Positions 18,818-49,392 of a DNA stretch of 64,000 nucleotides are shown here, in pieces (position 1 is the first letter of the stretch; the number at the start of each line of letters is the position of its first letter). Under the pieces are notes generated by a model. That model saw only the letters and a list, made by a program, of their open reading frames with translations, was not told where the DNA came from and did not search any database. Source of the stretch: a candidate division WS6 bacterium OLB20. GTDB lineage: Bacteria > Patescibacteriota > Dojkabacteria > B142 > OLB20. The stretch lies in NCBI GenBank assembly GCA_001567355.1, contig JYNZ01000003.1:466263-530262 (forward strand). Direction: 5' to 3'. The translations under genes were made by a program, and so were the position numbers.

Positions 18818-19033
18818 TCAGCCGTTCTCTCTGATAAATTCATCCAGCAGGGCACGCGCCTCTTCCAGTGACAGCGACCTGTCGTAGAGCCTGATACGCT
18901 GCTCCATTGTCAGTCCGGGTATCCCATCCACATACGCCCCGAACTCCCAGCGTTCCTGCTCCTCGAGAATCGCCCGTGCCCGCTCCTCGGGTATACCTTC
19001 TCCCTTGTTGTCGTGCGGCGCTAGATCATTCAT
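18818..19033 (-). CDS. Hypothetical small protein
   Basis: 71-aa ORF directly abutting 18398..18817; no recognised motif. Confidence 0.3.
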   Translation of the reverse strand: MNDLAPHDNKGEGIPEERARAILEEQERWEFGAYVDGIPGLTMEQRIRLYDRSLSLEEARALLDEFIRENG

Positions 19034-19077
19034 GCCATAATCCTACCACACCGCTCGTGTTTTTCTGTGCTATAGTG

Positions 19078-20378
19078 ATGCAGACTTATTTTGGAAATTT
19101 CAACATGCCTGTCAATTTTCCCCTACCCCGCAAAGATGAGCTGGCTCCTGAGGAGCAGCAGGCCTCTAACGGCAGACTGATCAAGCGTATTACGTTTTTC
19201 GGTGATTCTGCCATACCTGAGGACGATCCGATCTATAAATCAGTCTGGGAGGCAGCACGGATTCTGGCGGAACGCGGATTTGCGATCGTAAACGGTGGCG
19301 GTCCCGGCATTATGAAGGCAGCCACAGACGGAGCCGAGTCTGTCAACGGTGATACTGTCGCAGTGTACTGGCAGCCGAAGCTGGCGTCTTTTTTTGAAGG
19401 AAAAAACCTGGCAAATGTAACTGACGAGTCGGAAACGTTCTCAAACTATCTGATCAGAACCCTTGGTCTGATCGAACATGGTGATGCATATGTAGTCTGC
19501 AAAGGCGGTACCGGAACTGTGTCCGAGTTCGGGATGGTGTGGGCACTGGCCAAGCTGTACTACGGCTGCCACAAACCGGTTATCCTCTACGGCGAGTTCT
19601 GGGACGGACTGATCGAAGCGTTTCAGCGTGATATGTACATTGACGACATCGAACGTGGTGTACTGTATCAGGCAACTACTCCTGAGGAGATCGTAAACAT
19701 TATCGATAAGCATGAACTGCAGATCCAGCATTGCGGCAAGCGCAGATTTTCCGGTGATGAGGCAGGTTTTGTGCTGGGCGCCGAGGTCAAACTGACCCAG
19801 GAGACACATGATGCCATCGCATCAAGTTATCATGGAGAGTATGCCGGACGTCTTGTTGCTCAGGAGCAGATGGAGGAGTTTATGTCGCTTGTTCATCCGC
19901 CTGCAAAGGTGCTCGACGTTGGCACCGGCCCTGGTCATGATGCCAGGTTTCTGTCAGAAAAATACTCTGTGACCGGCATCGAGATTTCGCAAAAGTTTGC
20001 CGAGATCGCCAAATTTGAAACCCCGAGATGGAAATCATCAACGCCGATGTAGTCACCTACGATCTCGGCAGTAATATCTACAAGGGCATCTGGGCACGTA
20101 ATTCCATTCATCACATCCCCGAACGTGACCTGGACCCGGTATTTAAAAAGCTTGCTGACGCTCTGGTGGAAGGCGGGTATCTGTTTGTTATTGTCCGCGA
20201 AGGCGAAGGCGAATTTGTCGAGGAGGATGTTAAAAACTATCTGCGTATTCAGAAGTTCTACCACCTTTTTACGGAAGACGAGCTGCGCAGCAGAGGTGAG
20301 AAAGCCGGACTCACGCTCGAACGTATCGACCATAACAAACGCAGCCATAAATGGCTGGTTGGCATCTTCCGGAAGTAA
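19078..20378 (+). CDS. LOG-family (TIGR00730 Rossmann nucleotide-binding) domain fused to a class I SAM-dependent methyltransferase; frameshifted near 20030-20050
   Basis: LOG motifs GGGPGIMKAA and KGGTGTVSEFGMVWALAKL. The MTase motif I VLDVGTGPGHD lies in ORF 18907..20052. Motifs II and III (INADVVTYDL, LVEGGYLFVIVRE) continue in ORF 20028..20378 in another frame. Confidence 0.6.
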
Positions 20379-20636
20379 TCAGCGTTTGATATAGAGTACA
20401 AACAGAATAGCAAGACTCATGGTGATCTGCACCAGCGCTGATGTTTTGACCCACCAGTAAAAGCGTTTTGACGGTTTTCCGCCGGTTATGCCTTTAAACT
20501 TCAGCGAACGCTTCGTTATCTTCCAGTAGGCCTCCGGATTAAAGTACAGCCAGCCGCTTGTGATCCCGAGCAGCAGTGCAAACGCGATCAGGAAGTAACG
20601 GATAAACTGTACAAACAGAAATGTGCTGTAATCCAT
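20379..20636 (-). CDS. Hypothetical small membrane protein
   Basis: Two predicted TM helices. Confidence 0.3.
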   Translation of the reverse strand: MDYSTFLFVQFIRYFLIAFALLLGITSGWLYFNPEAYWKITKRSLKFKGITGGKPSKRFYWWVKTSALVQITMSLAILFVLYIKR

Positions 20637-20661: not shown

Positions 20662-21621
20662 TCAGGTCATCGCCAGCAGCTCGCGGGCAGTTTCATACAT
20701 CAGAGGGCGTTCGTTCTGCTTCTGCTGATACCACCACTCTGCTCCCCACAGCCATATCTCAGTTACAGGCAGGGTCCTGACCGCCTGTATGTTTTCACGC
20801 AGACGCATCGGTGACATGGATCTGATCTGCTCTTCGATGCTGTCAGGAGGCAGATGCGAACGTTCTGAGGGTCCCCAGGGTTCCGCCTGCAGTTCGGTGA
20901 CAAGCACCGGCTTTGCCGCAGCAGCAATCTTTTCTTTGAGGTTTGCCGGGTCGATACCCGGATACTGATAGCGCCGCAACTGCCGGGCATACGAAGCCGG
21001 GTAGATATTGATCCCGACTTCATCACCATACAGCGCAGCCTTGCGCCATCGACTGTGCTCTGCAGTATCTGTCATCAGCACCGGCCTGTCATCAAGTCTG
21101 CGCACCGCAGCAACTGCCTGGTTGACGTACTCCTCTGTCAGCGGAAATTCACTGTGGCCGAACTGCCAGAAAGGTTCGTTTTCGATCTGCCAGCGTACGA
21201 CAGCGGAATTGTCGCGGTAATGGTTGACCACATTTTCTATGAAATAGATTGAACGTTCTGCCAGGTAGTGTTCGCCCTTATCCAGCGCCCAGGCCGGCTC
21301 ATGATACTCGGGCCAGCGCGGAACCTTGCGTCCGGCTGCGACAGTTACAGCACACTCCGCCTCTGCTGCAGTTTTGATGATGCTGTCCAGCTCTGTAAAA
21401 TCGAACAGATGCGGTTCCTGTTCGATTTCGTCCCAGTAGGCACACACACGCAATGCGCTAAACGGAAAGTCGGCAAGCAGGTCATGCAAAACCCGACCGG
21501 GATCAAGCCCGAGCTCGCGGCAGTATTTCTGACTGAATGTTATACCCCATCTTGTTGCCATACTAAAGACTAGCACATCAGGTCTGTATGACTGCAACGC
21601 GGTGCGGGTGTAATAGCCCAA
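20662..21621 (-). CDS. Glycoside hydrolase, clan GH-A (GH5/cellulase-like)
   Basis: Acid/base motif VRWQIENEP and a nucleophile-like VLVTELQAEPWG. Confidence 0.5.
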   Translation of the reverse strand: MGYYTRTALQSYRPDVLVFSMATRWGITFSQKYCRELGLDPGRVLHDLLADFPFSALRVCAYWDEIEQEPHLFDFTELDSIIKTAAEAECAVTVAAGRKVPRWPEYHEPAWALDKGEHYLAERSIYFIENVVNHYRDNSAVVRWQIENEPFWQFGHSEFPLTEEYVNQAVAAVRRLDDRPVLMTDTAEHSRWRKAALYGDEVGINIYPASYARQLRRYQYPGIDPANLKEKIAAAAKPVLVTELQAEPWGPSERSHLPPDSIEEQIRSMSPMRLRENIQAVRTLPVTEIWLWGAEWWYQQKQNERPLMYETARELLAMT

Positions 21622-21661
21622 AGCAACCTCACCTACCCCCGGATACTGTTGTGAGACAGGT

Positions 21662-21693
21662 ACTTATTAAGCACCTGCCGGCTGCACTAAGTC
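21662..21693. repeat. 32-bp direct repeat copy 1 (acttattaagcacctgccggctgcactaagtc)
   Basis: Identical 32-mer also at 23859..23890. Each copy lies about 40-130 bp upstream (minus-strand sense) of a secreted-hydrolase transcription unit. Confidence 0.7.
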
Positions 21694-21720
21694 ATGGGGG
21701 GTCCCATGCCCCGGGGATTT

Positions 21721-22389
21721 TTAATAGATCTTTGCGCCATTCTTAATGGTCAGTGAATAACCGCTTTTGACAAGGATATGGTAATTCTGAAAGTCAAAGT
21801 CAATGTTCCCCTCAACTACACAGTTCTGTTCGATGATCCAATTGCTGCTTTGTACAGGAGTACATCTTGGAGCAAATTTGTACGCAGCGTAGCCAAGATA
21901 ACTTCCTGACTGTCTAACAAAATAGTGTATGTGCTTAAAGCCATTTGCGCATCCTTTATCACTTATCGTTCCAATGACTTGCCCCTCAATAACATATTCG
22001 CCATCTTCTGCAGCGTTTGGGGCATTAGCATCGATATGAACATAGTTGACATCAACACCATTTTCTCCAACTATTCTCAGGTATTGTGCGGAGCATCCAT
22101 CGTTTAAATAGTCTACAGTTCCGGAGATACTTGCTAATGCATCATAGCCATAGCAGGATTGATAATCATTACCATAATATGGATTCCCTTCATTACCAGC
22201 TATGTCTAGTTCATTATTCGATCCAGCATGTGCCCTGCCAATATTTACATTGTATTCCTCTCCCGTTTTCACAAACGCACCATCCACAAAATTGCAGGGC
22301 TGTCCCACATATACCAATGCATGAGAAGAAGACGATGTCTGACTAAAAATAATGACCGCAAGGATAAAAACTACGCTTCTAGATCTCAT
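21721..22389 (-). CDS. Secreted M23 family peptidase (LytM domain)
   Basis: Signal peptide MRSRSVVFILAVIIFSQTSSSSHA, then VNYVHIDANAP...GQVIGTISDKG...FKHIHYFV, matching M23 HxxxD ... HxH. Confidence 0.55.
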   Translation of the reverse strand: MRSRSVVFILAVIIFSQTSSSSHALVYVGQPCNFVDGAFVKTGEEYNVNIGRAHAGSNNELDIAGNEGNPYYGNDYQSCYGYDALASISGTVDYLNDGCSAQYLRIVGENGVDVNYVHIDANAPNAAEDGEYVIEGQVIGTISDKGCANGFKHIHYFVRQSGSYLGYAAYKFAPRCTPVQSSNWIIEQNCVVEGNIDFDFQNYHILVKSGYSLTIKNGAKIY

Positions 22390-23051
22390 GATTGACGAAT
22401 TGATGAAAGAATTGTTTCAACTTCTGACATAAGTTGTGGATCCTGTTTAAGTGAATCAATGCTATCTTCAAGCTCTAACGTAATATAACCGACAACAGTT
22501 AGCGTGCTGAGTGCTATTGCTTTGTTCTTAGATGGACCACATACCTGTAGTCCCCACCGCTCTGTCTCAACTATGTAATATTCACCGGTTCCATTTGTTA
22601 CTTTGATTGCATCTTCTGTAATGATGACCGCCAGATCGCTTTCACTAGAGAAATGGCATCCCTTTCCACCAATATTTCCGTTAAGTATTCTTAATACTGC
22701 GCGATCATTTCTAAGAGTAATCTCTTCACTTTCTTCATCCTTCGGTGTATTCACCTCAAGTTCCCAGTCTGAAGGAAAATCCAATGAGAAGGGTTTCGCG
22801 AAAGGATAAATTGAAGTATATGTTTGATTAGCATTTACCGTAGGATTCGGCGTCTCACTCACTACCAGATAAGAATCAGGCTGGTCTTCTGCAAGCGTGA
22901 CTGTCGGTGTAGGATAGTCCGCTGTCCGCATCTCATTCTGAACCATCGTCGTAACTGCATATCCTCCAGCAAGAGCGAAAAGACAGCCTGTGGCAAACGA
23001 TGCAGCCAGCAGTACAGAACGATGTCCAGGATTATTCATGTCTATCTTCAT
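22386..23051 (-). CDS. Secreted hypothetical protein
   Basis: N-terminal signal/TM; overlaps the next gene by 4 nt (operon). Confidence 0.4.
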   Translation of the reverse strand: MKIDMNNPGHRSVLLAASFATGCLFALAGGYAVTTMVQNEMRTADYPTPTVTLAEDQPDSYLVVSETPNPTVNANQTYTSIYPFAKPFSLDFPSDWELEVNTPKDEESEEITLRNDRAVLRILNGNIGGKGCHFSSESDLAVIITEDAIKVTNGTGEYYIVETERWGLQVCGPSKNKAIALSTLTVVGYITLELEDSIDSLKQDPQLMSEVETILSSIRQS

Positions 23052-23090
23052 GGTTTGCTTTTTCTAAGATATATTTTCCAGTGTAGCCGA

Positions 23091-23732
23091 TTAACAGTTA
23101 CCAATACATACATCCCCGTTGTAATACAATCGCATTGGCGTCTTCTGCCAGGCTCCACTATCGTAGAGTGAATGAAAATTCAGAGCACCGCTTGTAATTC
23201 CTATCCTGAAAAGCTTCTGATTGGTAAGCGCGTCCTCATCTTCAAAGGTGAGCGCAGGTGAACCACCCTCTTTGATGTGAACTCTACCAAGGGGTGTAGT
23301 GCTGCCTGAAGCTGTGCCGGTAAATCTGCCCAGACCCGTAAACCCTGTGGCTCCGTCAAACAGAAAGCCGTTAACCTCGGATCCATATGGACCCCCATAC
23401 ATCTCAAGATCGGCGTAGTCATTGGCACCACGGATCATAAGCCGTGTCGTCTGGTCTCCATTGACATCCTCTGTCAGGAACTCCAAGGTTGCATCACCGC
23501 CAAGGATGCCCTGGTCAATCGCAAAACCCCCACTTGTACCGTTGTTACCCTCAAGCAGGTACCCGGGATCAGTCAGTCCGATACCTACATTTCCACCGGT
23601 ATAGAAGATGTCGTTTCCGCTTGCAACCCAGTTACCGATTGCACGCACAACCGGCGCAAACACCGGCACCGTCAAAATAAGGATGAGACACGCTGCTGTT
23701 GCCAGCAGATATGATGAGATACGCTTCTTCAT
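23091..23732 (-). CDS. Secreted hypothetical protein (Gly/Thr-rich)
   Basis: Signal peptide MKKRISSYLLATAACLILILTVPVFA; first gene of a three-gene secreted operon. Confidence 0.4.
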   Translation of the reverse strand: MKKRISSYLLATAACLILILTVPVFAPVVRAIGNWVASGNDIFYTGGNVGIGLTDPGYLLEGNNGTSGGFAIDQGILGGDATLEFLTEDVNGDQTTRLMIRGANDYADLEMYGGPYGSEVNGFLFDGATGFTGLGRFTGTASGSTTPLGRVHIKEGGSPALTFEDEDALTNQKLFRIGITSGALNFHSLYDSGAWQKTPMRLYYNGDVCIGNC

Positions 23733-23769
23733 AGCGCGAATAAAAGAAGTAATTATTTCAGTGAATCAC

Positions 23770-23779
23770 GGGGGGGGGG
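23770..23779. promoter_or_regulatory. G10 homopolymer in the promoter region of 23091..23732; candidate slipped-strand phase-variation tract
   Basis: cacg-G10-taacacc lies about 40 bp upstream of the start codon at 23732. Confidence 0.4.
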
Positions 23780-23858
23780 TAACACCGCATTGTACCGCAA
23801 CGCAAATTTGCGGACTTTGTCAGGAAAAATTGCAGCGGGAACCAGTCGGGACGCAGAG

Positions 23859-23890
23859 ACTTATTAAGCACCTGCCGGCTGCACTAAGTC
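23859..23890. repeat. 32-bp direct repeat copy 2
   Basis: Identical to 21662..21693. Confidence 0.7.
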
Positions 23891-23942
23891 CTAGGGTCGG
23901 ACCGAATCAGACTGCAGATAGATTTTCAGCAAGAAATCATCA

Positions 23943-25322
23943 TCAGGCATGCGGCAGCGGCAGACGCCACACCTCTTCCGAAACGTGATCGTCAACACCT
24001 TCTCCAAACAGCAGTTTTGTCCGTGTCTGCAACGCTCTTGCAACGACCTTGACTGTAAACTTCATGTGGTGTTCACCTGATGCTCCGTTCTGCCTCTGTT
24101 TATCAGACCTGGCAGCAACATAATCCAGTCCGAGCGCATCCTCGTCCACCACTTCTCCGTCCGGGGTCTCGATCTGTTCGGACAAATACGGGTCGCCAGG
24201 CTCCTCAGCCTGTTCGCTGGTGTCTGCCTGCAGTTCGGCAGTCGATCCCTGCATCTCAGTCTGGTTATGATAGTAGAACGCTGTATCCCAGAATCTGTCC
24301 AGACAGGATATATCCCCTGTCCCTGCCTCAAACGCAATCCTGCTCGTCGGGAGATAATTATGTCCGTCACCGTCTGAAACCCGCATATAGTCAAGTGCTG
24401 CAGCATAGCGGTCCTTAAGGTTGAAGATCTCTGCCGTCCCGAATCCCAGATAGCCTGCCAGCCGGCTCAGCCTGAGCAATCCGATCTGCGCATAGCCACC
24501 CGTCACCCCGAAGATACGTGTATCAATGTAACTGCGCCGGTTCGTACGGTTAAAGTCGCGCAACGGCAACTCCAGTGCCAGAATTCTTTCCGTCAGCGCA
24601 TTGCGTTCCGTCTCATCTTCGCTCCACACAAGATGCCGCAACGTATCTGTCATAAACTCCCCGCTGCTGACCGGTTGCAATGCATCGAAATGCGCATGGT
24701 ATCCGCTGTTAATCCGCAGCGGGACAGACGTCAGCGGTACACCGCCTTCACTGATGTCAGCAAGCAGATACCTGGCACCTCCTGTCGTTCTTGCTTCGCT
24801 GGCAAGCCTGTGCATATCATGGTCAAGATGAAAACCAAGCACCGAGGCAAACTGTGAATCATAGCTGTTACGGCTCTGAACTGCTTCCATCAGTATCCCC
24901 TGCTTGCTTCTCGGTGAGCGGGGTATTGAATATATAAACCCGTGACCGTCCATTCTGACAAAGCCACCCTGACTGATCTCAAATGCGTTTTTCCGCATAC
25001 GGTACTCATCCTTGTGACGCTTATCCATAATCTGGTTGCCAGTACCCAGGATGAGGTCGGACAGCGTTCTGTCGCCGTTTTTTCCGAACCGCGGAAGATT
25101 GATTGTTATTCTGCCGAACGGATCATCCTCGTGAACAGTGATTGTGCTTGAGGGCAGAAAGTACTCTGCGATCTCTGTGTAGGAGGCGGAGCCGTTAGTG
25201 ACAATTGCACTCAGTACCCGCCGGTGCTGCTCGGGTGCGGTTGATGACTCAAAATATGCGAGTTGTGATGTATTGCGGATTTCTGTGTGCATAGTCAGAT
25301 TCTGATCTATATAACACACCAT
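23943..25322 (-). CDS. Hypothetical protein (459 aa)
   Basis: Long ORF; no recognised motif. Confidence 0.4.
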   Translation of the reverse strand: MVCYIDQNLTMHTEIRNTSQLAYFESSTAPEQHRRVLSAIVTNGSASYTEIAEYFLPSSTITVHEDDPFGRITINLPRFGKNGDRTLSDLILGTGNQIMDKRHKDEYRMRKNAFEISQGGFVRMDGHGFIYSIPRSPRSKQGILMEAVQSRNSYDSQFASVLGFHLDHDMHRLASEARTTGGARYLLADISEGGVPLTSVPLRINSGYHAHFDALQPVSSGEFMTDTLRHLVWSEDETERNALTERILALELPLRDFNRTNRRSYIDTRIFGVTGGYAQIGLLRLSRLAGYLGFGTAEIFNLKDRYAAALDYMRVSDGDGHNYLPTSRIAFEAGTGDISCLDRFWDTAFYYHNQTEMQGSTAELQADTSEQAEEPGDPYLSEQIETPDGEVVDEDALGLDYVAARSDKQRQNGASGEHHMKFTVKVVARALQTRTKLLFGEGVDDHVSEEVWRLPLPHA

Positions 25323-25419: not shown

Positions 25420-26133
25420 CTAATCAGTATCTGTCGGGAGAATGAGCCGGGGGATTGGCTTCCGGACCAATCCCTGCAGGAGGACTCTTTTTAGGGGGTA
25501 CCTTCTGTTGAAATCTGCCATCGAGTATCTGTTAGGGTCATGTTCCCGTATCAAAGGTACACAGATCCCTACTCTGCGTTTTCGTGATCCCATCAACGTA
25601 CCGGGGACGACAGCGCCAGACCCGAGCAGTCCCTCCTGTCCAAGCTGGTCAACAAGCAGATCAGTCATTGCGTCAATACCTGCGGCAACCGGGATATCAA
25701 GAGTCACCATATTCGCGTGCGGAATGCTGGAGATTGCCGGTAATATGTGTTCGGAGAGAATCGAAAGCAGGAGTCGCTTTTTCAGCGCAAAGACGTCGAT
25801 CGCGCCACCAGAGTCCAGGAGCTCAAGCGCAACATCAGGCCTGGGTATTGTGTCTTCAACAAGGATGGTTGTGTCATCAGTTATTTCTGCGGGGTTCGTT
25901 GAGACAGTAAGATGCTGGTGCAGACTGTCGTAGCTTACACGGGGCGCAATCGGGCTCCGGTATGGCTCCTGATCGATGATGATTCCGGTTGCAGCGCCAA
26001 GCGTCAGTCCCGAGACCTTCACGTTCCAGGTGCCAGCGTAGAGATATCTGCCTGCGTTCAAAGAGTCAATCACAATACCTTGATCATATTTGCTGTCAGG
26101 TGTACTGGACATACTACAGTGTATCAATACCAC
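25420..26133 (-). CDS. Hypothetical protein
   Basis: ORF only; start possibly at 26112. Confidence 0.35.
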   Translation of the reverse strand: MVLIHCSMSSTPDSKYDQGIVIDSLNAGRYLYAGTWNVKVSGLTLGAATGIIIDQEPYRSPIAPRVSYDSLHQHLTVSTNPAEITDDTTILVEDTIPRPDVALELLDSGGAIDVFALKKRLLLSILSEHILPAISSIPHANMVTLDIPVAAGIDAMTDLLVDQLGQEGLLGSGAVVPGTLMGSRKRRVGICVPLIREHDPNRYSMADFNRRYPLKRVLLQGLVRKPIPRLILPTDTD

Positions 26134-30670: not shown

Positions 30671-30868
30671 TTATTTCTTGCGGCTGCTCTTTTTTGCAGG
30701 TTTCTTGGCAGCCTTCTTGACTGTCTTTTTGACAGTCTTCTTCACGCTTTTCTTAGCAGCCGGCTTTTTCTTGGCTGTCTTTTTTACAGCTTTTTTGACA
30801 GTCTTCTTGACTGTCTTCTTAGCCTTGGCAGTGCTTTTTTTTGCGCTCGATTTTGCCTTAGTTGGCAT
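30671..30868 (-). CDS. Lys/Ala-rich histone H1-like (Hc1-like) DNA-binding protein
   Basis: MPTKAKSSAKKSTAKAKKTVKKTVKKAVKKTAKKKPAAKK..., with tandem codon repeats in the DNA. Confidence 0.6.
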   Translation of the reverse strand: MPTKAKSSAKKSTAKAKKTVKKTVKKAVKKTAKKKPAAKKSVKKTVKKTVKKAAKKPAKKSSRKK

Positions 30869-31039
30869 GGGCGGTAGCACATAAATTAATACTTTCAGTA
30901 TAGTCATGCCCACAGAAGAACACAACATATTAAGAATGCCGGAATCAACTGCAGTTCAGATCGATTCGCGCTCCACAAATATTTTTTGTTTTACCTGAGC
31001 GCTGTATGATGTTGTATACTGCCACAAACCGGACTACAT

Positions 31040-40994: not shown

Positions 40995-41234
40995 ACAGGT
41001 AACAGGTTTATATGTATCCGGGCAGGTGTTAGGGGTTAAAACGTTTGATGGGCGTCTGTATTACAAGGGAGAACATAGACTGGTGAGACTCTTGCGAAGG
41101 TGGTGGACAGTCTGATGTCGAATGCGAACCGGATCGTTAAAAGACTAAATCTGGTCATCCCCTTACTTAAAGCAGTACAATTGTAGTATAATCCAAAAGT
41201 TTACCCATCAGGTTAATTTTTTGTTACTATATAG

Positions 41235-41531
41235 ATGCAGGTTGAGTACGCAAGCAGAAAAGCCGAGAAGACGTTCAATAAGTACCTCAACGGTACTGAG
41301 TTTTCCAGCAAGATCGAACGGCGTATCCTTGAGTTAGAGGCAGCTCAAGACCTTTCACAAATAGATGCAATCAAGTCTCTACAATTGCATAAGCTTTCCG
41401 GCAAGAGGAAGGGACAAATGTCCATCGCCTGCAAAGGGAGTTGGAAAATAGTTTTTATTGCAAAAGTGGATTTTACTCAATATTCAGAAGTTACAGAGAT
41501 AGAGCTACTGGACTTCGTAGACTACCATTAA
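41235..41531 (+). CDS. higB: HigB-like (RelE/ParE superfamily) toxin
   Basis: LHKLSGKRKGQMSIACKGSWKIVFIAKV...ELLDFVDYH parallels HigB LHPLKGDREGYWSI..NWRITF...YEDYH. Confidence 0.65.
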   Translation: MQVEYASRKAEKTFNKYLNGTEFSSKIERRILELEAAQDLSQIDAIKSLQLHKLSGKRKGQMSIACKGSWKIVFIAKVDFTQYSEVTEIELLDFVDYH

Positions 41532-41534
41532 AAA

Positions 41535-42638
41535 ATGGGCATTAAGTTAGATACAACACAATTTATCATTCCCCCGGGCGAGACCATCAAAGAACAACTC
41601 GCTTATCTTGGCATGTCTCAAAAAGAACTAGCCACAAGAATGAACTACTCAGAGAAGGCTATTAGCAAGCTGATAAACGGAAAAGTTTCATTAACGACTG
41701 ACACGGCACTTGAACTAGAGAATATTTTTGGAATACCTGCAGTTTTTTGGATTAACCTTGATGCGAACTATCAACTACGTAAGAAAAGACAAGAGGATAT
41801 CACTGTATCTAAGAGCGAGATAGACATTGCGAGAAGATATAAGTGTTACGCGGAGATTTCCAATCGCGGGTATGTAAAGAAAACTAGCGACTGGCATCTT
41901 CGTGTTAAAGAACTCTGTCGCTTCTTTGGGGTTTCGAACTTAGGTCAAATTATGAAGCTCGATTATGGAGTAGCATTTAAACAAGCAAGTTCACGCTCAA
42001 TTGACTCATATTCAGTGCAATGTCTTCTAAGAATTGGAGAATTGGAAGCACAAGACATAAGTGTTCCCGATTTTAACAAAGAGGGATTAAAGGAACTTAT
42101 CCCCCAAATTAGGAGTCTAATCACCTTACCTATAGAAGAAGCAATTCAGAATTTACGAGTATTACTAAATTCTGTTGGTGTTAGACTCGTTTTGACTCCA
42201 TCGATCAGCAAAACGATGATTAATGGAGCAGTGAAGTGGTCAGATGACAGGCCAACAATACAAGTGACAGATTACAAGAAAGCTGTTGATATCTTTTGGT
42301 TTACAATTTTCCATGAGCTAGGACATGTTTTGCTTCATGGTAGAGGAAAAGGGAAAAGGTTCGTAGATACATACTCAAATTTATCAAGTAAAGAGAATAT
42401 TGAACTGGAAGCGAACCAATTCGCGCAGAATACGCTTATACCAGAAGATGCATTTAATGATTTCATTGAGAATGGTAGCTTCTATGAAGCTGATATTATA
42501 GGATTCTCAGCTGTTGTAGGTATTCCTGCATCCATCATCGCTGGGAGACTGGCTCACGACAAGAGTATTACTCAGTACGGATACAACTTTGCTCAAAAAT
42601 TCCGAACGAGTATCGATCTAACAGAGATAAATATCTAG
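41535..42638 (+). CDS. HigA-like HTH-XRE antitoxin fused to an ImmA/IrrE family zinc metallopeptidase domain
   Basis: N-terminal HTH (LGMSQKELATRMNYSEKAISKLINGK) and a C-terminal HEXXH motif FTIFHELGHVLLHG. Begins 4 nt after higB. Confidence 0.7.
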   Translation: MGIKLDTTQFIIPPGETIKEQLAYLGMSQKELATRMNYSEKAISKLINGKVSLTTDTALELENIFGIPAVFWINLDANYQLRKKRQEDITVSKSEIDIARRYKCYAEISNRGYVKKTSDWHLRVKELCRFFGVSNLGQIMKLDYGVAFKQASSRSIDSYSVQCLLRIGELEAQDISVPDFNKEGLKELIPQIRSLITLPIEEAIQNLRVLLNSVGVRLVLTPSISKTMINGAVKWSDDRPTIQVTDYKKAVDIFWFTIFHELGHVLLHGRGKGKRFVDTYSNLSSKENIELEANQFAQNTLIPEDAFNDFIENGSFYEADIIGFSAVVGIPASIIAGRLAHDKSITQYGYNFAQKFRTSIDLTEINI

Positions 42639-43372
42639 CAGATCGGATCATATCCCTCACAAGCGTCATACACATAGACATCATCGTATCTTTTCATTCC
42701 TACATACCCCTGAACCAACACTAAATATAGAACATCCTTATTTATCAACGGATTATTCCGAAATTGTCCAGATACATAATCATAAACATCTTCGTCCTCA
42801 GTAAACGGTCTCCAATGACTAATATAGATGATTCCTTTATCACCTTTCTTTCTCTTGCGATATTTCAATATTTGATTTTGAGCATCCTCAATACGGTCTT
42901 TCAGCCAACGTATACTTACAGCAGTCTCCTCTACTGAGGATTTTACCTCAGTGTAGAAAGTTACCCCGTTACACTCACTCTTTAGATCGGGTGTTTTTCC
43001 ATTTTCTTCAGGGATAAACTCAATAAATTCATGCCCCATCTCCAGCAGCCTATGCAAGGCTTCGAATTCAGAGGTGGCCAACCTAAAATCCTTTTGTGAC
43101 ATCCTCCTAGCTTTATCAAGCCACGGCGAGATATCAATATCATTATCGAGAATGTTTCTCACCCTTTCTTCATTTACCTCCACTTCATGACGTCCTGTTA
43201 GAGCTATTAGGTCTTGCAACTTCAGCCAATTATCAGCCTTGCGTCTTATTAACTGCACTTCGTCATAATATGGGATAAGAGATGTTTCTTTCCCAATATG
43301 AGTGAATATGAAAGTATTAGGATCAAAGTTTGAGAGTGTAAACACTTGACCCTTTATTGAATTCTTCGGCAT
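42635..43372 (-). CDS. Hypothetical protein with a PD-(D/E)xK-like motif (possible nuclease)
   Basis: TPDLKSECNGVTFYTEVKS matches PD-x(n)-E-V-K; no other support. Confidence 0.3.
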   Translation of the reverse strand: MPKNSIKGQVFTLSNFDPNTFIFTHIGKETSLIPYYDEVQLIRRKADNWLKLQDLIALTGRHEVEVNEERVRNILDNDIDISPWLDKARRMSQKDFRLATSEFEALHRLLEMGHEFIEFIPEENGKTPDLKSECNGVTFYTEVKSSVEETAVSIRWLKDRIEDAQNQILKYRKRKKGDKGIIYISHWRPFTEDEDVYDYVSGQFRNNPLINKDVLYLVLVQGYVGMKRYDDVYVYDACEGYDPIC

Positions 43373-43410
43373 AACATTATACGAAGCTATAACTCCTCCC
43401 TTGTAACTAC

Positions 43411-43737
43411 CTACCCATTCTGAACATGCTCGTCATAATGCTCAAGCCTATTTCGAGCTGAACGCTTGTGAATCGAACTAGACTCTTTGACCCCAATAAG
43501 TGAGGCCACTGTTTCTTCATATGGTGCACTCTTGCTATTCTGGGGATTTGCTTTTAGCAACTTCGAGACCATAGCGCAATGCGTCAAAAAAGAATGAATC
43601 GACGAAAAAACTAAATCTGTATTTCTAGCCACCTTAGGCTCGAGGCTCTCAAAAGAACGTATTGCAAATGTACATTGTGTGGAAATCTCCCTAACTAGGA
43701 ATTCTTTCCATAAGGCTTCTTTCTGTTTGTTACTCAT
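43411..43737 (-). CDS. Hypothetical small protein, upstream partner of 42635..43372
   Basis: ORF only. Confidence 0.3.
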   Translation of the reverse strand: MSNKQKEALWKEFLVREISTQCTFAIRSFESLEPKVARNTDLVFSSIHSFLTHCAMVSKLLKANPQNSKSAPYEETVASLIGVKESSSIHKRSARNRLEHYDEHVQNG

Positions 43738-43957
43738 ATGTTAAGATTAATAATTCCAAGGGGTTAATATCCCAAGAAGTCCCTCAGTACTCTTTTATGA
43801 GGTTGTAACAAAAATCGCACCAACTCTTCGAGGTCACAACAGGAACAGCTCAATCTCTGTATTTACAGTTTTACCATACCCTTGCACGTGACCCAATGCT
43901 CACAGGGTTACCCTAGATCGTGCTATTGTGTAAGATGTACACATATTATAACCCACC

Positions 43958-44793
43958 ATGAACATACTTAACGCACTAATCAACCTTAGCAAGAGAGACA
44001 CATACAAGATAGACGAGCTATACGAAGGTAATAACCGGATTAATAATGTTGGAGATGCACTGGAGTATTTCATCAAGGATGGGTTCATTAACGAGGAAGT
44101 TTCAAGTAATGAACAAAGAGACAAGAAGTATAGTGAGGCATTCTCTTACCTTGGAAATAGTTCTAATCCACCCGATTTTATGCTTAGAGGTGGTGATGCA
44201 TTTGAAGTAAAAAAAGGTAAAACTCATTACCTCTAACCTAGCTCTAAATAGTTCGCATCCAAAGGACGTACTTTACAAAGATGACCCAAAGATTTCATCA
44301 AGCTGTCGAGAGGCCGAAGGTGGGCAATGGGATAAAAAAAGACTTGGTATATGCTGTTGGAATAGTTAACGAAACAGTTGAAAAAGTATTGTTTGTATAT
44401 GGCGATTGCTATTCTGCGAACAAGGATACCTATGTAAGAGTTAGTAATATGATAAGAAGTGGAATTATATCAATAGAGGGGGTTGAGTTCGCAGAAACTT
44501 CAGAGTTAGGAAGGGTAAATAAGGTTGATCCCCTAGGAATTACTTACTTAAGAATGAGGGGGATGTGGCACATAGAGACTCCATATAAACTGTTCAAAGA
44601 TCAACTAATAGAGCTAGATGCACTCGATAAAAGAATAATCTCGATAATGAAAAAGACTAAGTTTGATGAACTTATAACTGATGAATTAAGGCAGAGTTTA
44701 GAGAAGAATAATACAATCAAAACATGCAGGTTAAGAGACCCCAATAACCCTGCTATACTATTTGACTCAATTATCATTCACTCAAACACATGA
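43958..44793 (+). pseudogene. Type II restriction endonuclease (partner of the HaeIII-like methyltransferase), split into two ORFs
   Basis: PD-(D/E)xK motif PDFMLRGGDAFEVKK in ORF 43958..44236. The C-terminal part is in ORF 44281..44793 in another frame, with stops in both frames between them. Its stop overlaps the MTase start (ATGA). Confidence 0.45.
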
Positions 44794-45782
44794 AAATAGC
44801 ATCATTATTTGCAGGCGCAGGGGGTTTAGACAAAGGTTTTGAAAACGCAGGGTTCACTGTTGAGTGGGCGAATGAATACGACAAAACTATTTGGGAAACA
44901 TTTCGTAAGAATTTTCCTAAAACTCGTCTAGATGAAAGATCAATTCGTGATGTAGATAGTCAGGAAATAAAATCCTTTGGACACTTCGATGGTTTAGTAG
45001 GTGGTCCACCATGCCAAAGCTGGAGTCTTGCCGGGTCAATGAAAGGTATTGAAGATCAACGAGGGTCTCTTTTCTACGAATACCTCAGAGTACTTAGTGA
45101 TATTGAACCCAAGTTTTTTTTAGCTGAGAACGTCCCGGGGTTGATAAGTAAAAGACACATTGGTGAATATAAAAAAATTGTTGCAGAGTTTGAAAAACGA
45201 GGATACCAAGTTACAGAAGGTAAGGTAAATGCTTCAGATTATGGAGTTCCCGAAGATAGAGAGAGGGTAATTATTGTTGGTTTTCATAAAGACTTAAATA
45301 GAAAATTCATTTTTCCGGAGAGGACTCACAATAAGTTAAAGAAAGTCACATTAAAACAGGCAATAGGTGATCTTCCTGAGCCTGTTGCAGCTCTCCCAGG
45401 TAACAATGCGAACTCTAACCTCAAGATACCAAACCATGAATACTTCACTGGAGCATTCTCATCTAGATTCATGTCACGAAATAGAATTAGAGGTTGGGAT
45501 GAGCAGGCATATACAATCGAAGCAAGTGGAAGACATGCAAAACTACACCCTTCTGCACCGCCAATGAAGAAGATCAATAAAGATGAATGGATATTTGAGA
45601 AAGGAAGCGAACATAAATATCGAAGGTTAAGCATCAGGGAGAGTGCTAGGATTCAGACCTTTCCAGACAATTTTATATTTCACTACAGCAAAGTAAATGA
45701 TGGTTATAAAATGGTCGGGAATGCAGTGCCTGTAAAATTAGCAGAAGCGTTCGCAAATGAGATTTTAAAGCAGATTGCTTAA
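44790..45782 (+). CDS. DNA (cytosine-5)-methyltransferase, M.HaeIII-like (probable GGCC specificity)
   Basis: Motif I FAGAGGLDKGF, motif IV GGPPCQSWSLAG, motif VI FLAENVPGL. Length 330 aa with extended similarity to M.HaeIII as recalled (ANEYDKTIW..., PNHEYF..FMSRNR.., FIFHY...DGYKM.GNAVPV). Confidence 0.85.
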   Translation: MKIASLFAGAGGLDKGFENAGFTVEWANEYDKTIWETFRKNFPKTRLDERSIRDVDSQEIKSFGHFDGLVGGPPCQSWSLAGSMKGIEDQRGSLFYEYLRVLSDIEPKFFLAENVPGLISKRHIGEYKKIVAEFEKRGYQVTEGKVNASDYGVPEDRERVIIVGFHKDLNRKFIFPERTHNKLKKVTLKQAIGDLPEPVAALPGNNANSNLKIPNHEYFTGAFSSRFMSRNRIRGWDEQAYTIEASGRHAKLHPSAPPMKKINKDEWIFEKGSEHKYRRLSIRESARIQTFPDNFIFHYSKVNDGYKMVGNAVPVKLAEAFANEILKQIA

Positions 45783-45846
45783 GATTATTGGGTAACTTGT
45801 TGTCCCAAGTAGCTACCACGTTCTACAGCAGACTTTTGTTCAACGA

Positions 45847-45945
45847 TCAATTTGCCTGCCCCTCCCCCTTTTCGTAGGTTTCATCTTCATACTCCTTAGA
45901 AAACTCTATTGCTCTTTTTCTTATTTCATTCCAACTAAGGGCCAT
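45847..45945 (-). pseudogene. 32-aa N-terminal remnant of an MmeI-family (type IIL) restriction-modification enzyme
   Basis: Minus-strand translation MALSWNEIRKRAIEFSKEYEDETYEKGEGQAN then stop. MmeI-family proteins begin MALSWNEIRRKAIEFSKRWEDA.... Confidence 0.55.
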
Positions 45946-46305
45946 TGTACTTTTTTTGCTTTAATTAATTCTTAAGTCAACGGAAAGGCGAATGCCTTAT
46001 TCTACAGCATTTTACCCGAAAGAACATGCCACAAAACTATGAAGATCGACACGTTGCAACAACATACAAGATTTCCGCTGGTATTTCATACCACCTAATA
46101 GACGGCCCTAGTTAGTACATAAAAAAAACAAACTCTCAGACAACAGCGCCTCGTATTCAGAAGCACACCAAGCCCTACCAAAAATAAAGACGTCCGCCTA
46201 TCAAGAAATAAATGTCAACCAACTAGACCATTTTAGTCTACCTGGTAGACACATACATTCTATCCCCACTATAAGTTATACTCATACATATCAGCCATCA
46301 AATAC

Positions 46306-47178
46306 ATGCCAGACCTCCATACGAAATCAATTTCTTTAGACAACCTTTTGGACTCAATCAAGGAATTGATGAACCTACGAGAATCAGAGTATGCTGATTC
46401 GATTGATTCCTTCTTGGGTCTACCCCTTGAGACGAAAGAGGTAATCATTATCAGCCCCCAAAAACACTTTGTCGATAAACTTTATAGATACTACGGATCA
46501 CTTCAAGAGTACCCTACACGCGTCCAAGACAAGTTGGCTCTAAGAGGTGCTCAAGCACAAATTGAAGAGCCACTATTTGTTCACCACTCACCAGTGCTAG
46601 TTACTGACTCAGTATTCACACAACGAGTAATTAATAAATTGAAGGATTTAGAGTTTGTGATAAATGCAGGCCAACGAATACTTGACTACATCGACATTGC
46701 GGGTAAACAAGTCCTGAAAGATAACCTAGCAGAATTCGCTATCCCCGGTTCAACAATTGACTCCGTTGCGGTGACACAGATCACATTTAATTACGAAAGG
46801 TTTCTTATACAGCGATCCACAACCTCACTGCTCTACCCTATGATCAAGAGTCATCAGTTTAAGCTGCTAGCTAATGGCACATTTTATCTTCGAGTACGTG
46901 ACGATTGGAGACTAGGTATAAATACTTCAATCACAGATAAATATGGAAACCAATCCAATAGCAGTAAACTCTTGATTCATCTTCTTCAAGAAAAGAACAG
47001 AATGCCTCAGGTCAATAGATTCCCCATCAAACTACTGCAACGTGAGCTAGGAATTGCTCCAAAACAGATACTCTCGGCGATGGCATCAATAAACAGGAGT
47101 GTCAGTGAATACAAAGCCAAAGAGTTGATAGTCCTGAAGCGTGACAAAGAAGATATAGTGTTTATTTTGCGAAATTGA
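46306..47178 (+). CDS. Hypothetical protein (island cargo)
   Basis: ORF only; AT-rich. Confidence 0.35.
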   Translation: MPDLHTKSISLDNLLDSIKELMNLRESEYADSIDSFLGLPLETKEVIIISPQKHFVDKLYRYYGSLQEYPTRVQDKLALRGAQAQIEEPLFVHHSPVLVTDSVFTQRVINKLKDLEFVINAGQRILDYIDIAGKQVLKDNLAEFAIPGSTIDSVAVTQITFNYERFLIQRSTTSLLYPMIKSHQFKLLANGTFYLRVRDDWRLGINTSITDKYGNQSNSSKLLIHLLQEKNRMPQVNRFPIKLLQRELGIAPKQILSAMASINRSVSEYKAKELIVLKRDKEDIVFILRN

Positions 47179-47222
47179 ATCAGCTGCCTAGCTGATCAGA
47201 GCTGAAGTAATAGTCTCTGGGT

Positions 47223-47387
47223 ATGAAAGTACCCAAAGAAGAGAAACAAATAATTACAGTAAAGGAAGCTAGGAAACTTCTCGGTATTGACGCTAAGCAC
47301 CTAGACGATGAAACAATTGAAGCAATTGTCGACTCTTTAACTCAACTTGCTCATATACAAGTTAATATCAGACAGGAGGGACAGTAA
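47223..47387 (+). CDS. 54-aa putative HTH DNA-binding protein upstream of the recombinase (possible Xis/RDF or regulator)
   Basis: MKVPKEEKQIITVKEARKLLGIDAKHLDDETIEAIVDSLTQLAHIQVNIRQEGQ. Below the ORF-track cutoff. Confidence 0.3.
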   Translation: MKVPKEEKQIITVKEARKLLGIDAKHLDDETIEAIVDSLTQLAHIQVNIRQEGQ

Positions 47388-47437
47388 TTTTTCGATGGCT
47401 GAAGATACTGTTCTTCCTGTTTGTTATTGCAGCCATC

Positions 47438-49040: not shown

Positions 49041-49392
49041 CGTAAACCGCGAAACGACTGTACGCTTTTACTTTGCTCTAACAGGCGTACAAGCCACTAG
49101 AGTCTGCACTTTAGCTTGTTTTTCTCCCACGGGACCCCGCTAAAGGAGAGTTTCCATGAAAGGCTTAAATCGCGAGCCGAAGCTCAAGCGAATTTAGGCA
49201 GCGATGTTGAGGGCAAAGTTGCCGCTAAGGGCGAGCTTTACGTTCTCAACAAAGCTTGATACTTTGTTTTTGACGCTTATTTAGTCATTCCGGTTTGATC
49301 CGGAAGGAATCTGCTTACTTACGGCGAAACAGACTAAACAACACCGATCTGCCACACGTATCTGGTATTTCCTGTCGAATCCGGTCATCCCC
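48940..49392 (-). ncRNA. ssrA: tmRNA (SsrA)
   Basis: Minus-strand 5' end GGGGATGACCGGATTCGACAGG matches the canonical tmRNA 5' end (GGGGcuGAuucuGGAUUCGACgGG). The 3' end GGACGCGGGTTCAACTCCCGCCATCTCCACCA has a T-arm near-identical to E. coli tmRNA. The acceptor stem has a G3:U70 wobble. An internal tag-like frame ends ...GNFALNIAA then TAA. Confidence 0.8.

What the first reader, a model, noticed from the sequence alone, without database searches (positions are those of the whole stretch)
21622..23942. Perfect 32-bp direct repeat marking the upstream regions of two secreted-hydrolase transcription units
acttattaagcacctgccggctgcactaagtc occurs at 21662 and 23859 in the same orientation. Each copy is followed by a short GC palindrome.

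Copy 1 is upstream of the clan-A glycoside hydrolase. Copy 2 is upstream of the secreted operon 23091..23732 / 22386..23051 / M23 peptidase. A perfectly conserved 32-mer in two promoters suggests a shared operator (co-regulated cell-wall/glycan attack regulon) or a recombination site flanking a 2.2-kb cassette.
Basis: seen in the sequence. Interest (0 to 1): 0.55.

Follow-up and report, generated by a model that had tools for sequence, protein, structure and literature searches.

The report
Direct repeats bracketing an inserted gene cassette
Two identical 32-base sequences sit near the ends of a 2.4-kb, three-gene block that was inserted between two normally adjacent genes of a tiny uncultured bacterium (WS6/Dojkabacteria OLB20), so they mark an acquired cassette and are probably not a shared on/off switch; this is a fairly ordinary finding.

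Summary
ACTTATTAAGCACCTGCCGGCTGCACTAAGTC occurs exactly twice, at 21662 and 23859 on the same strand (0 expected by chance). No other copy, even a diverged one, was found in about 81.5 kb of this genome.

All genes here are on the minus strand, in this order: a 459-aa gene, repeat copy 2, three genes for exported proteins (213 aa, 221 aa, M23 peptidase), repeat copy 1, then the glycoside hydrolase (GH).

In three relatives the 459-aa-type gene abuts or overlaps the GH gene (gaps of -17 to about 25 nt). They have no cassette and no repeat. The roughly 2.36-kb block is therefore an OLB20-lineage insertion. It is partly low in GC and is flanked by a 7-bp duplication (CATCAGG). Removing the block restores a junction like that of the relatives.

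The GH keeps its own conserved TGnTAGTCT box 5 nt upstream of its ATG, a box also present in relatives that lack the repeat.

Best reading, at moderate confidence: the 32-mers are boundary repeats of an acquired, recombinase-less cassette, and recombination between them would excise a 2,197-bp circle. The shared-operator idea is not supported. I could not determine the mechanism, because the rest of the genome and the raw reads were out of reach.

The parts
21662..21693 (-). 32-nt repeat R, copy 1. On the minus (gene-sense) strand it reads GACTTAGTGCAGCCGGCAGGTGCTTAATAAGT. It lies 27 nt after the M23 stop codon and 100 nt before the GH ATG.
23859..23890 (-). 32-nt repeat R, copy 2, identical to copy 1. 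It lies 52 nt after the stop of the 459-aa gene and 126 nt before the start of the 213-aa gene.
21641..21699 (-). Extended 59-nt repeat around copy 1 (81% identical to 23838-23896). The extension continues the hairpin GGCAGGUGCUU-AAU-AAGUACCUGUC on the minus strand.
23838..23896 (-). Extended 59-nt repeat around copy 2.
21583..23940 (-). Inferred inserted block, 2,358 bp. It holds both repeats, three genes and all the new intergenic DNA, and it is absent from three relatives.
21576..21582 (.). 7-bp CATCAGG (+ strand; CCTGATG on minus), the GH-proximal copy of the junction duplication.
   Evidence: a 7-mer alone is not significant, p about 0.12; it gains weight from the restored junction
23941..23947 (.). 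7-bp CATCAGG, the copy that overlaps the TGA stop codon of the 459-aa gene.
23091..23732 (-). Cassette gene 1, 213 aa. It has an N-terminal signal-like segment and a Gly-rich domain shared with large surface or tail-fibre-like proteins. Its GC3 is 0.50.
22386..23051 (-). Cassette gene 2, 221 aa. It has an N-terminal membrane-anchor-like segment and no family match. Its GC3 is 0.32.
21721..22389 (-). Cassette gene 3, 222 aa, an M23 metallopeptidase with a signal-like N-terminus. It is full length relative to its homologues. Its GC3 is 0.345.
23943..25322 (-). Upstream host gene 'A', 459 aa, no known family. Its homologue, or the gene in the same position, directly precedes the GH in relatives.
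20662..21561 (-). Downstream host gene: a 299-aa clan GH-A-like glycoside hydrolase (start at the ATG at 21561; P0001, candidate division WS6 bacterium OLB20).
21567..21575 (-). TGcTAGTCT, an extended -10-like box 5 nt upstream of the GH ATG. It is conserved as TGnTAGTCT in relatives L005 and L006 and before the next gene (20636).
23831..23917 (-). Imperfect long hairpin with copy 2 at its apex (the CUGCAG...CUGCA feet), followed by AUUUUU at 23824-23830.
21635..21718 (-). Branched structure enclosing copy 1, closed by AUCCCCGG/CCGGGGGU.
23789..23794 (-). TACAAT -10-like box, 65 nt downstream of copy 2 and about 57 nt upstream of the 213-aa start. It is a candidate promoter for the cassette itself.
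   Evidence: by analogy with TACAAT/TATAAT boxes before other genes of the window

Best explanation
The two 32-mers are sub-terminal direct repeats of an acquired three-gene cassette. They are not a promoter element shared by two native transcription units.

Shown:
- The genome is candidate division WS6 (Dojkabacteria) bacterium OLB20.
- In three relatives the 459-aa-type gene and the GH gene are adjacent or overlapping.
- In OLB20 about 2.36 kb has been inserted exactly between the stop codon of the first gene and the conserved TGnTAGTCT box of the second. The insert carries three genes for exported proteins and two new intergenic regions, each with one copy of the 32-mer.
- The insert is bounded by a 7-bp duplication.
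- No recombinase gene lies in the insert or within 10 kb of it.

Inferred:
- The repeats are the cassette's boundary or recombination sites (att-like). Identity over 32 nt is enough for a site-specific recombinase acting in trans or for RecA-type recombination.
- A crossover between the two copies would release a 2,197-bp circle carrying the three genes and one repeat, and leave one repeat behind. The reverse reaction would integrate such a circle at a resident copy.
- A perfect core with an abrupt loss of similarity on one side and a decaying similarity on the other is what attL/attR pairs usually look like.
- Each copy also sits in a hairpin-forming context on the gene-sense strand. The elements may therefore also end or insulate the upstream transcripts.
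For: Repeat and copy number:
- Exact repeat, only two copies, none expected by chance.
- No further copy in the window with up to 3 mismatches per half, in 17.5 kb beyond both window ends with up to 8 substitutions, or by profile search of all 244 kb held.

Insertion relative to relatives:
- L005: 18-nt gap between the homologue of A and the GH.
- L006: about 8-25 nt gap.
- L014-L017: 17-nt overlap.
- None of these loci contains anything like the repeat.

Composition:
- GC falls from about 0.53 to about 0.40, starting right at copy 1 and running to about 23150.
- GC3 is 0.32-0.35 for two cassette genes, against 0.55-0.60 for host genes.

Cassette as a unit:
- The same gene order (213-like, 221-like, M23) occurs in another genome, L007, next to sortase and FtsZ genes, at 27, 28 and 56% identity.

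Junctions:
- A 7-bp duplication lies at both outer junctions. Deleting one copy plus the insert gives ...gccTGATGtgcTAGTCTttagtATG, which closely resembles L005 ...gagTGATTGtgaTAGTCTcagtttATG.

Other:
- Three k=31 assemblies of an identical strain break exactly at the repeat, as expected for a true 32-nt two-copy repeat.
- One-sided flank similarity, p about 0.006.
- No recombinase within 10 kb (Pfam tables).
Against: - There is no direct evidence of recombination at the repeat. No empty-site or circle junction was seen, and the k=31 contigs cannot distinguish these states.
- The probable insertion junctions (the 7-mers) are 50 and 79 nt outside the repeats. A simple one-step attP x attB event at the repeat therefore does not explain the whole insert; a two-step history, or import of both copies from the donor, is needed.
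- The flanks of each copy pair with each other better than the swapped (attB/attP-like) combinations do: duplex -21.6 and -20.7 kcal/mol against -9.6 and -15.8, which is the top 2-3% of genomic windows. This fits two self-contained hairpin elements better than hybrid att sites.
- The low-GC part covers only about two thirds of the cassette.
- The repeat lacks the arm-spacer-arm symmetry of typical tyrosine-recombinase core sites.
- Only about 11% of the genome could be searched.
Confidence: 0.45

Rival explanations
1. The repeat is a cis-acting expression element that came with the cassette. It could be the conserved apex of two intergenic RNA hairpins that terminate, insulate or stabilise the upstream transcripts (the A mRNA and the cassette mRNA). 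Alternatively it could be a binding site for a regulator protein or RNA. On this view the perfect identity reflects constraint or a very recent duplication, not strand exchange.
For: - Both copies lie in intergenic DNA shortly after stop codons (27 and 52 nt).
- The gene-sense strand folds better than the opposite strand: z = -1.67 and -1.96 against -0.07 and -0.88.
- The stem GGCAGGUGCUU/AAGUNNCUGNC is kept in both copies, with C/U changes opposite G.
- The flanks of each copy are mutually complementary.
- With the repeat removed, copy 2's context folds as a long hairpin followed by AAUUUUU, which resembles a terminator.
- Many genes in the window appear leaderless, with a -10 box 5-8 nt before the start codon. 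On that reading the repeats lie in 3' regions rather than 5' UTRs.
Against: - The predicted structures of the two copies differ: a simple long hairpin against a branched fold, and different internal hairpins of the repeat are used.
- Copy 1 has no U-tract.
- The simple terminator scan finds nothing on the minus strand at either copy.
- There is no Rfam match even at E = 10.
- Neither a terminator nor an operator needs 32 of 32 identical bases while the neighbouring bases differ by about 40%.
- The element is absent from relatives.
- Its distance to the nearest -10-like boxes is not conserved (64 versus 89 nt).
Confidence: 0.25
2. The 32-mer is the core of a short repeat family that is dispersed elsewhere in this genome or in the donor genome. 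It could be REP/MITE-like, or the sub-terminal hairpins of a non-autonomous single-strand (IS200/IS605-type, 'PATE') or other transposable cassette. Two copies happen to bracket, or serve to mobilise, the three genes.
For: - Same-orientation sub-terminal repeats in hairpin contexts.
- No terminal inverted repeats at the ends of the insert.
- No recombinase inside the cassette.
- A precise insertion with a short junction repeat.
Against: - No other copy in about 81.5 kb.
- Zero hits in the viral collection with the full 32-mer, and in the JGI metagenome collection with a 24-nt core of it.
- The conserved part is the apex and the variable part is the stem, the reverse of MITEs, whose ends are the conserved part.
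- No HUH/Y1 transposase, TnpB or RAYT gene was seen among the window ORFs I scanned against Pfam or in the precomputed Pfam tables of the overlapping contigs; some short ORFs were not scanned.
- The distances of the repeats from the ends of the insert (50 and 79 nt) are larger than I recall for IS608 (19 and 10 nt; from my own knowledge, not tested).
Confidence: 0.15
3. Assembly mis-join. The chromosome really reads A-R-GH, and the 2.2-kb block is a separate circular molecule that shares the 32-mer and was threaded into the contig.
For: The k=31 Logan assemblies break at the repeat and yield the block as its own 2,225-bp contig that begins and ends within the repeat. That pattern is compatible with either topology.
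Against: - The deposited 744,746-bp contig joins the pieces in the integrated order.
- The block has no replication gene.
- It co-occurs at 100% identity with the host contigs in samples years apart.
- A 32-nt repeat is easily spanned by single reads.
- Even if this were true, a 32-mer shared by a circle and the chromosome would still indicate an att-type relationship.
Confidence: 0.05

Closest known systems
attL/attR direct repeats of small integrated islands (integrase-mediated or Campbell-type insertion)
   Same: A perfect short core repeated in the same orientation on both sides of compositionally foreign genes that relatives lack. Similarity decays outside the core. Recombination between the copies would excise a circle.
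   Different: There is no integrase in the cassette or nearby. The target is not a tRNA or tmRNA gene. The relatives' empty site has no copy of the core. The apparent insertion junctions lie 50 and 79 nt outside the repeats.
Integron gene cassettes and CALINs (clusters of attC sites lacking an integrase)
   Same: A recombinase-less gene cassette inserted into an existing transcription unit, bounded by hairpin-forming repeats that follow the coding region.
   Different: No RYYYAAC/GTTRRRY core sites. The conserved part is the hairpin apex, not its base. The cassette holds three genes rather than the usual one. There is no intI and no array of cassettes.
Phage 'morons' and other insulated expression cassettes
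   Same: A self-contained unit dropped between two adjacent genes. It may have its own promoter (TACAAT box), and hairpin elements lie at both edges.
   Different: The host is a cellular chromosome. The identical 32-nt apex at both edges is not a feature of morons.
IS200/IS605-type ends and palindrome-associated transposable elements (PATEs)
   Same: No terminal inverted repeats. Similar sub-terminal hairpins lie in the same orientation at both ends. The cargo has no transposase.
   Different: No Y1 transposase was found in the sequence available. The distances from hairpin to element end are larger. A 7-bp junction duplication is not typical of this family.

Membership tests
Transcription-factor operator / regulon motif | Several copies in front of co-regulated genes across the genome | tested here: not met
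   Only the two copies in about 81.5 kb (about 11% of the 745-kb contig), and both sit at the edges of one insert. The rest of the genome could not be searched.
Transcription-factor operator / regulon motif | Fixed position relative to the promoter or start codon | tested here: not met
   The repeat lies 100 versus 126 nt from the start codons, and 89 versus 64 nt from the nearest -10-like boxes, TAGTCT and TACAAT.
Transcription-factor operator / regulon motif | Conservation upstream of orthologous genes in relatives | tested here: not met
   The GH orthologues in L005, L006 and L014-L017 have gaps of -17 to 25 nt before the GH and no such motif.
Integrated element with attL/attR | Identical core in direct orientation on both sides of the element | tested here: met
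   32 of 32 nt identical, spacing 2,197 bp.
Integrated element with attL/attR | Element absent from the same site in relatives | tested here: met
   Three relatives have the two flanking genes adjacent.
Integrated element with attL/attR | Unoccupied attB (a single core copy) at the empty site | tested here: not met
   The relatives' junctions have no room for the core and no copy of it. However, the relatives are distant (GH identity 43-58%), so the immediate ancestor is unknown.
Integrated element with attL/attR | A cognate integrase encoded by the element | tested here: not met
   The cassette encodes only three exported proteins. The only recombinase found in the window is a split large serine recombinase at 47438-49040, in another island.
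Integron cassette / attC | R''/R' core sites RYYYAAC ... GTTRRRY at the base of an imperfect palindrome | tested here: not met
   Reading both intergenic regions on both strands finds no such pair. The nearest candidates, GTTGCTT and GTTCCC, violate the consensus.
Integron cassette / attC | intI gene, or at least an array of two or more cassettes | tested here: not met
   No tyrosine recombinase was found in the scanned ORFs of the window. There is a single cassette.
Xer/dif-dependent element (IMEX) | A 28-bp dif-like site: 11-nt arms in inverted orientation around a 6-nt centre | tested here: not met
   With GCCGGC taken as the centre, the arms match at only 1 of 11 positions (by eye). The only dyad is ACTTA/TAAGT, 21 nt apart. 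The GC skew shows no terminus-type switch in the window.
REP / MITE-type dispersed repeat | Many copies per genome; conserved ends or inverted termini | tested here: inconclusive
   Two copies in 81.5 kb. The conserved part is central and the flanks differ. The whole genome was not available.
IS200/IS605-type non-autonomous element | A Y1 (HUH) transposase somewhere in the genome that recognises the sub-terminal hairpins | not testable with these tools
   The OLB20 genome is not in the searchable genome collection. None was found in the roughly 81.5 kb inspected.
CRISPR array | Repeats of 23-47 nt separated by spacers of about 26-72 nt | tested here: not met
   The repeat length fits (32 nt), but the 'spacer' is 2,165 bp and contains three genes.
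Diversity-generating retroelement TR/VR pair | Mismatches confined to adenines of one copy; a reverse transcriptase nearby | tested here: not met
   Of 9 mismatches in the 59-nt repeat, only 5 fall at A positions of one copy. No reverse transcriptase lies in the neighbourhood.

The most novel reading that the evidence does not exclude
The 32-mer hairpins are the recognition sites of a cassette-mobilising system in candidate-phyla-radiation bacteria. On this reading, recombinase-less modules of exported 'attack' or cell-wall proteins are cut out as circles and pasted between genes by an enzyme acting in trans. That would be functionally integron-like or IS200/IS605-like, but without the attC/IntI or Y1-end signatures.
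Probability: 0.1. Interest if true: 0.6.

Novelty: new member of a known kind. Interest (0 to 1): 0.3.

Why it matters
Candidate-phyla-radiation bacteria such as Dojkabacteria have very small genomes, and how they gain and lose genes is poorly documented. This locus gives a clean, base-resolved example.

A three-gene module for exported proteins (a tail-fibre-like protein, a membrane protein and an M23 peptidase) was dropped between two genes that are adjacent in relatives, and the promoter of the downstream gene was preserved. The insert carries identical boundary repeats that could make the module excisable.

If the repeats prove to be active recombination sites, they would point to a cassette-exchange mechanism in these organisms. 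If not, this is an ordinary islet with duplicated flanking hairpins.

Tried and rejected
Searches that found nothing useful:
- Rfam at gathering thresholds over the whole window, and at E = 10 over 21400-24100: nothing at the repeats.
- tRNA/tmRNA scan: the only gene is a tmRNA at 48940-49392, unrelated in sequence to the repeat.
- Public DNA searches. The 32-mer and two halves against viral contigs gave one 18-mer hit, inside the N-terminus of a Dam-type methylase gene (ELIKHLP). The match ends at the 18-mer, so I judge it chance.
- A 20-mer against one genome per species gave one Rhizobium plasmid hit, also chance. The OLB20 genome is evidently not in that collection.
- A 24-mer against JGI metagenomes gave no hit.
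- A protein-pattern search for M23 relatives in viral and metagenome contigs gave no confirmed locus.
- The literature search ('OLB20'; 'Patescibacteria integron attC') returned nothing relevant.

Ideas tested and dropped:
- Coding remnant. Six-frame translation shows an open + frame (LIKHLPAALS) through both copies, but with no protein-level similarity outside the repeat and no recognisable gene.
- Homology of the two intergenic regions beyond about 60 nt: local alignments are not better than shuffles.
- Sigma-70-type promoter inside the repeat: none found by the scan on the minus strand, and none by eye.
- An ECF-type reading of GGA(A/T)(A/C)C-N16-CTTATT on the + strand would drive antisense transcription only. 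I did not pursue it.
- A RAT/antiterminator-like switch: two mutually exclusive hairpins exist within the repeat, but neither is followed by a U-tract.
- A two-step 'small element first, cassette second' model. The reconstructed 161-nt element has poor self-complementarity (-9.6 kcal/mol) and no inverted termini, so this model gains no support, though it is not excluded.
- attC, dif, CRISPR and DGR readings: rejected, as detailed in the membership table.
Full report
**1. The observation**

The 32-mer ACTTATTAAGCACCTGCCGGCTGCACTAAGTC occurs at 21662-21693 and 23859-23890 on the + strand. There is no third copy with up to 3 mismatches, and no match is expected by chance. Ungapped extension gives 59 nt at 81% identity.

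The extension is one-sided. Toward lower + coordinates, 12 of the next 21 bases match (anchored test p about 0.006). Toward higher coordinates there is no similarity (p = 0.23). Gapped local alignment of the wider flanks is no better than shuffled controls.

**2. Organism and gene layout**

The GH protein is 100% identical to a protein of 'candidate division WS6 bacterium OLB20', a Dojkabacteria/CPR genome with a 744,746-bp contig.

All genes around the finding are on the minus strand, in this order:
- a 237-aa gene
- a 459-aa gene with no known family, called 'A' here
- repeat copy 2
- a 213-aa gene
- a 221-aa gene
- a 222-aa M23 peptidase gene
- repeat copy 1
- the 299-aa GH-A-like hydrolase
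- an 85-aa gene

The three middle proteins have signal- or anchor-like N-termini. The GH does not (read from the translations).

**3. The three genes are an insertion**

Three relatives have an A-type gene immediately before the GH:
- L005 (GH 56% identical, A 28% identical over its full length): 18-nt gap.
- L006 (GH 58% identical, with the C-terminal part of an A homologue): 8-25 nt gap, depending on the start codon.
- L014-L017, including GCA_001567305.1 (GH 43% identical): a 463-aa gene overlaps the GH by 17 nt, in an otherwise strongly syntenic neighbourhood. Its similarity to A is only marginal, so I count it as equivalent by position only.

None of these loci has anything resembling the repeat by BLAST or by profile search.

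In OLB20, GC drops from about 0.53 to about 0.40, beginning right at copy 1 (about 21700) and lasting to about 23150. GC3 is 0.345 (M23) and 0.32 (221 aa), against 0.55-0.60 for neighbouring host genes. The 213-aa gene is intermediate at 0.50, so the block is compositionally mosaic.

The same three-gene order occurs in another low-GC genome (L007) between sortase and FtsZ genes, at 27, 28 and 56% identity. The trio is therefore a transferable module. The M23 protein is full length. The 221-aa protein has no hit in the word-indexed search other than itself.

**4. Junctions**

The heptamer CATCAGG (CCTGATG on the gene strand) occurs at 23941-23947, overlapping A's TGA stop codon. It occurs again at 21576-21582, directly upstream of TGcTAGTCT-N5-ATG of the GH.

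Deleting one copy and everything between the two gives ...gccTGATGtgcTAGTCTttagtATG. This closely resembles L005 (...gagTGATTGtgaTAGTCTcagtttATG) and L006 (...TAGgcagttttgtggTAGTCTctgctATG).

A 7-mer in zones of this size is not significant on its own (p about 0.12). The restored junction is what makes it credible. It could be a target-site duplication or a junctional microhomology.

On this reading the insert is 2,358 bp. The two 32-mers lie 50 and 79 nt inside its ends, and the ends are not inverted repeats.

**5. Promoters**

Many genes in the window have a TATAAT-like box 5-8 nt before the start codon, which suggests leaderless transcripts.

The GH has TGcTAGTCT 5 nt before its ATG. The same TGnTAGTCT box is present in L005 and L006, which lack the repeat, and before the next gene at 20636. 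The GH therefore has a conserved promoter-like element that does not depend on the repeat.

The cassette has a TACAAT box 65 nt downstream of copy 2. The repeat lies 64 and 89 nt from these two boxes, so its geometry relative to them is not fixed.

The consensus scan finds no sigma-70-type promoter or minus-strand terminator at either copy.

**6. Structure**

- On the gene-sense strand both intergenic regions fold better than the opposite strand: z = -1.67 and -1.96, against -0.07 and -0.88.
- The flanks of each copy are mutually complementary. Duplex energies are -21.6 and -20.7 kcal/mol, against -9.6 and -15.8 for the swapped combinations. This places them in the top 2-3% of windows with the same geometry across the 64 kb.
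- Without the repeat, copy 2's context is a long imperfect hairpin followed by AAUUUUU.
- The detailed folds of the two copies differ, and the repeat can form two mutually exclusive internal hairpins.
- There is no Rfam match.

Overall there is weak to moderate evidence for hairpin contexts, and none for a defined RNA family.

**7. How widespread the repeat is**

There are two copies in the window. There are none in the 8.9 kb and 8.6 kb beyond its two ends, even allowing 8 substitutions.

The full 32-mer had no hit in IMG/VR, and a 24-nt core of it had none in the JGI metagenomes. Sub-words gave one chance hit each in IMG/VR and in the species-representative genome set. The OLB20 genome itself is not in the searchable genome collection, so the decisive genome-wide count could not be made.

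**8. Independent assemblies**

Logan (k=31) contigs from SRR29904086 and SRR29904083 are 100% identical to the window over 24.7 kb. They break exactly at the repeat, and the cassette forms its own 2,225-bp contig that begins and ends within the repeat.

This confirms a true two-context 32-mer. It cannot tell the integrated state from an excised one.

A third sample (SRR1797700) differs only in two homopolymer lengths.

**9. Recombinases**

No recombinase lies in the cassette or within 10 kb of it. The only one found in the window is a large serine recombinase split into three ORFs (47438-49040). It lies in a separate low-GC island next to the tmRNA gene. Enzymes of that type do not generate 32-bp direct repeats (established knowledge).

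**10. Interpretation**

Shown: a lineage-specific, partly foreign, three-gene block has been inserted between two genes that are adjacent in relatives, and it carries identical 32-nt direct repeats near both ends.

Inferred, with confidence about 0.45: the repeats are the cassette's boundary or recombination sites. A crossover between them would release a 2,197-bp circle.

Competing readings:
- conserved apexes of flanking terminator or insulator hairpins, or another cis-regulatory site (0.25)
- members of a dispersed repeat or transposon-end family (0.15)
- an assembly mis-join of a circle (0.05)

The operator/regulon idea fails every test that could be applied.

**11. Verdict**

The finding is a real and tidy example of a direct-repeat-bracketed cassette insertion in a CPR genome. 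It is a new member of a known kind, of modest interest (0.3). Its mechanism can be settled by read mapping and a whole-genome motif count.

Noticed in passing
window 41000-49040 (tmRNA gene at 48940-49392, minus strand): An 8-kb low-GC island (0.36-0.44 against about 0.52) abuts the 3' end of the tmRNA gene. It encodes a HigB-like toxin, an HTH plus M78 (ImmA/IrrE-like) protein, an NgoPII-type restriction enzyme split into two ORFs, a C5 cytosine methylase, and a large serine recombinase split into three ORFs. No flanking direct repeat of 15 nt or more was found.
   Followed up: partly
window 18907-20052 and 20028-20378 (+); compare L014/L015 6904-8181: The LOG/SLOG-methyltransferase fusion gene is one intact 425-aa ORF in a relative but is split into two overlapping ORFs in OLB20. 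The split is identical in the independent Logan assembly of SRR29904086, so it is probably not a sequencing error.
   Followed up: partly
window, many gene starts (e.g. 33370, 53230, 59054, 58985, 29071, 13760, 21561, 20636): TATAAT-like boxes lie only 5-8 nt upstream of start codons, which suggests widespread leaderless transcription. TGnTAGTCT-N5/6-ATG before the GH is conserved in two relatives.
   Followed up: partly
window 23770-23779: A G10 tract (C10 on the gene strand) lies in the 5' region of the cassette's first gene, between the TACAAT box and the start codon. A contig from SRR1797700 has C9 here, and G6 instead of G5 at 23391-23395. This is either real phase-variable slippage or homopolymer sequencing error.
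   Followed up: partly
L007 9217-9270 and 12652-12705: In the other genome that carries the gene trio, the last 54 nt of the 191-aa (213-like) gene are repeated at 93% identity 3.4 kb downstream. The two copies bracket the 221-like, M23 and two further small genes. The M23 module is therefore flanked by direct repeats there too, but of unrelated sequence.
   Followed up: partly
window 25420-26133 (-): A 237-aa gene with no family match lies between the ECF-type sigma gene and gene A. It has no counterpart in relative L005, where the sigma gene and the A homologue are directly divergent. This may be a second lineage-specific insertion.
   Followed up: no
window about 48969: The Logan contig that starts at repeat copy 2 ends at about window position 48969, inside the 3' part of the tmRNA gene at the island junction. 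This hints at another repeated 31-mer or a population variant there.
   Followed up: no
window 30671-30928 (-): An 85-aa Lys/Ala-rich, histone-H1-like ORF is built from tandem 12-nt repeat units (family D1).
   Followed up: no
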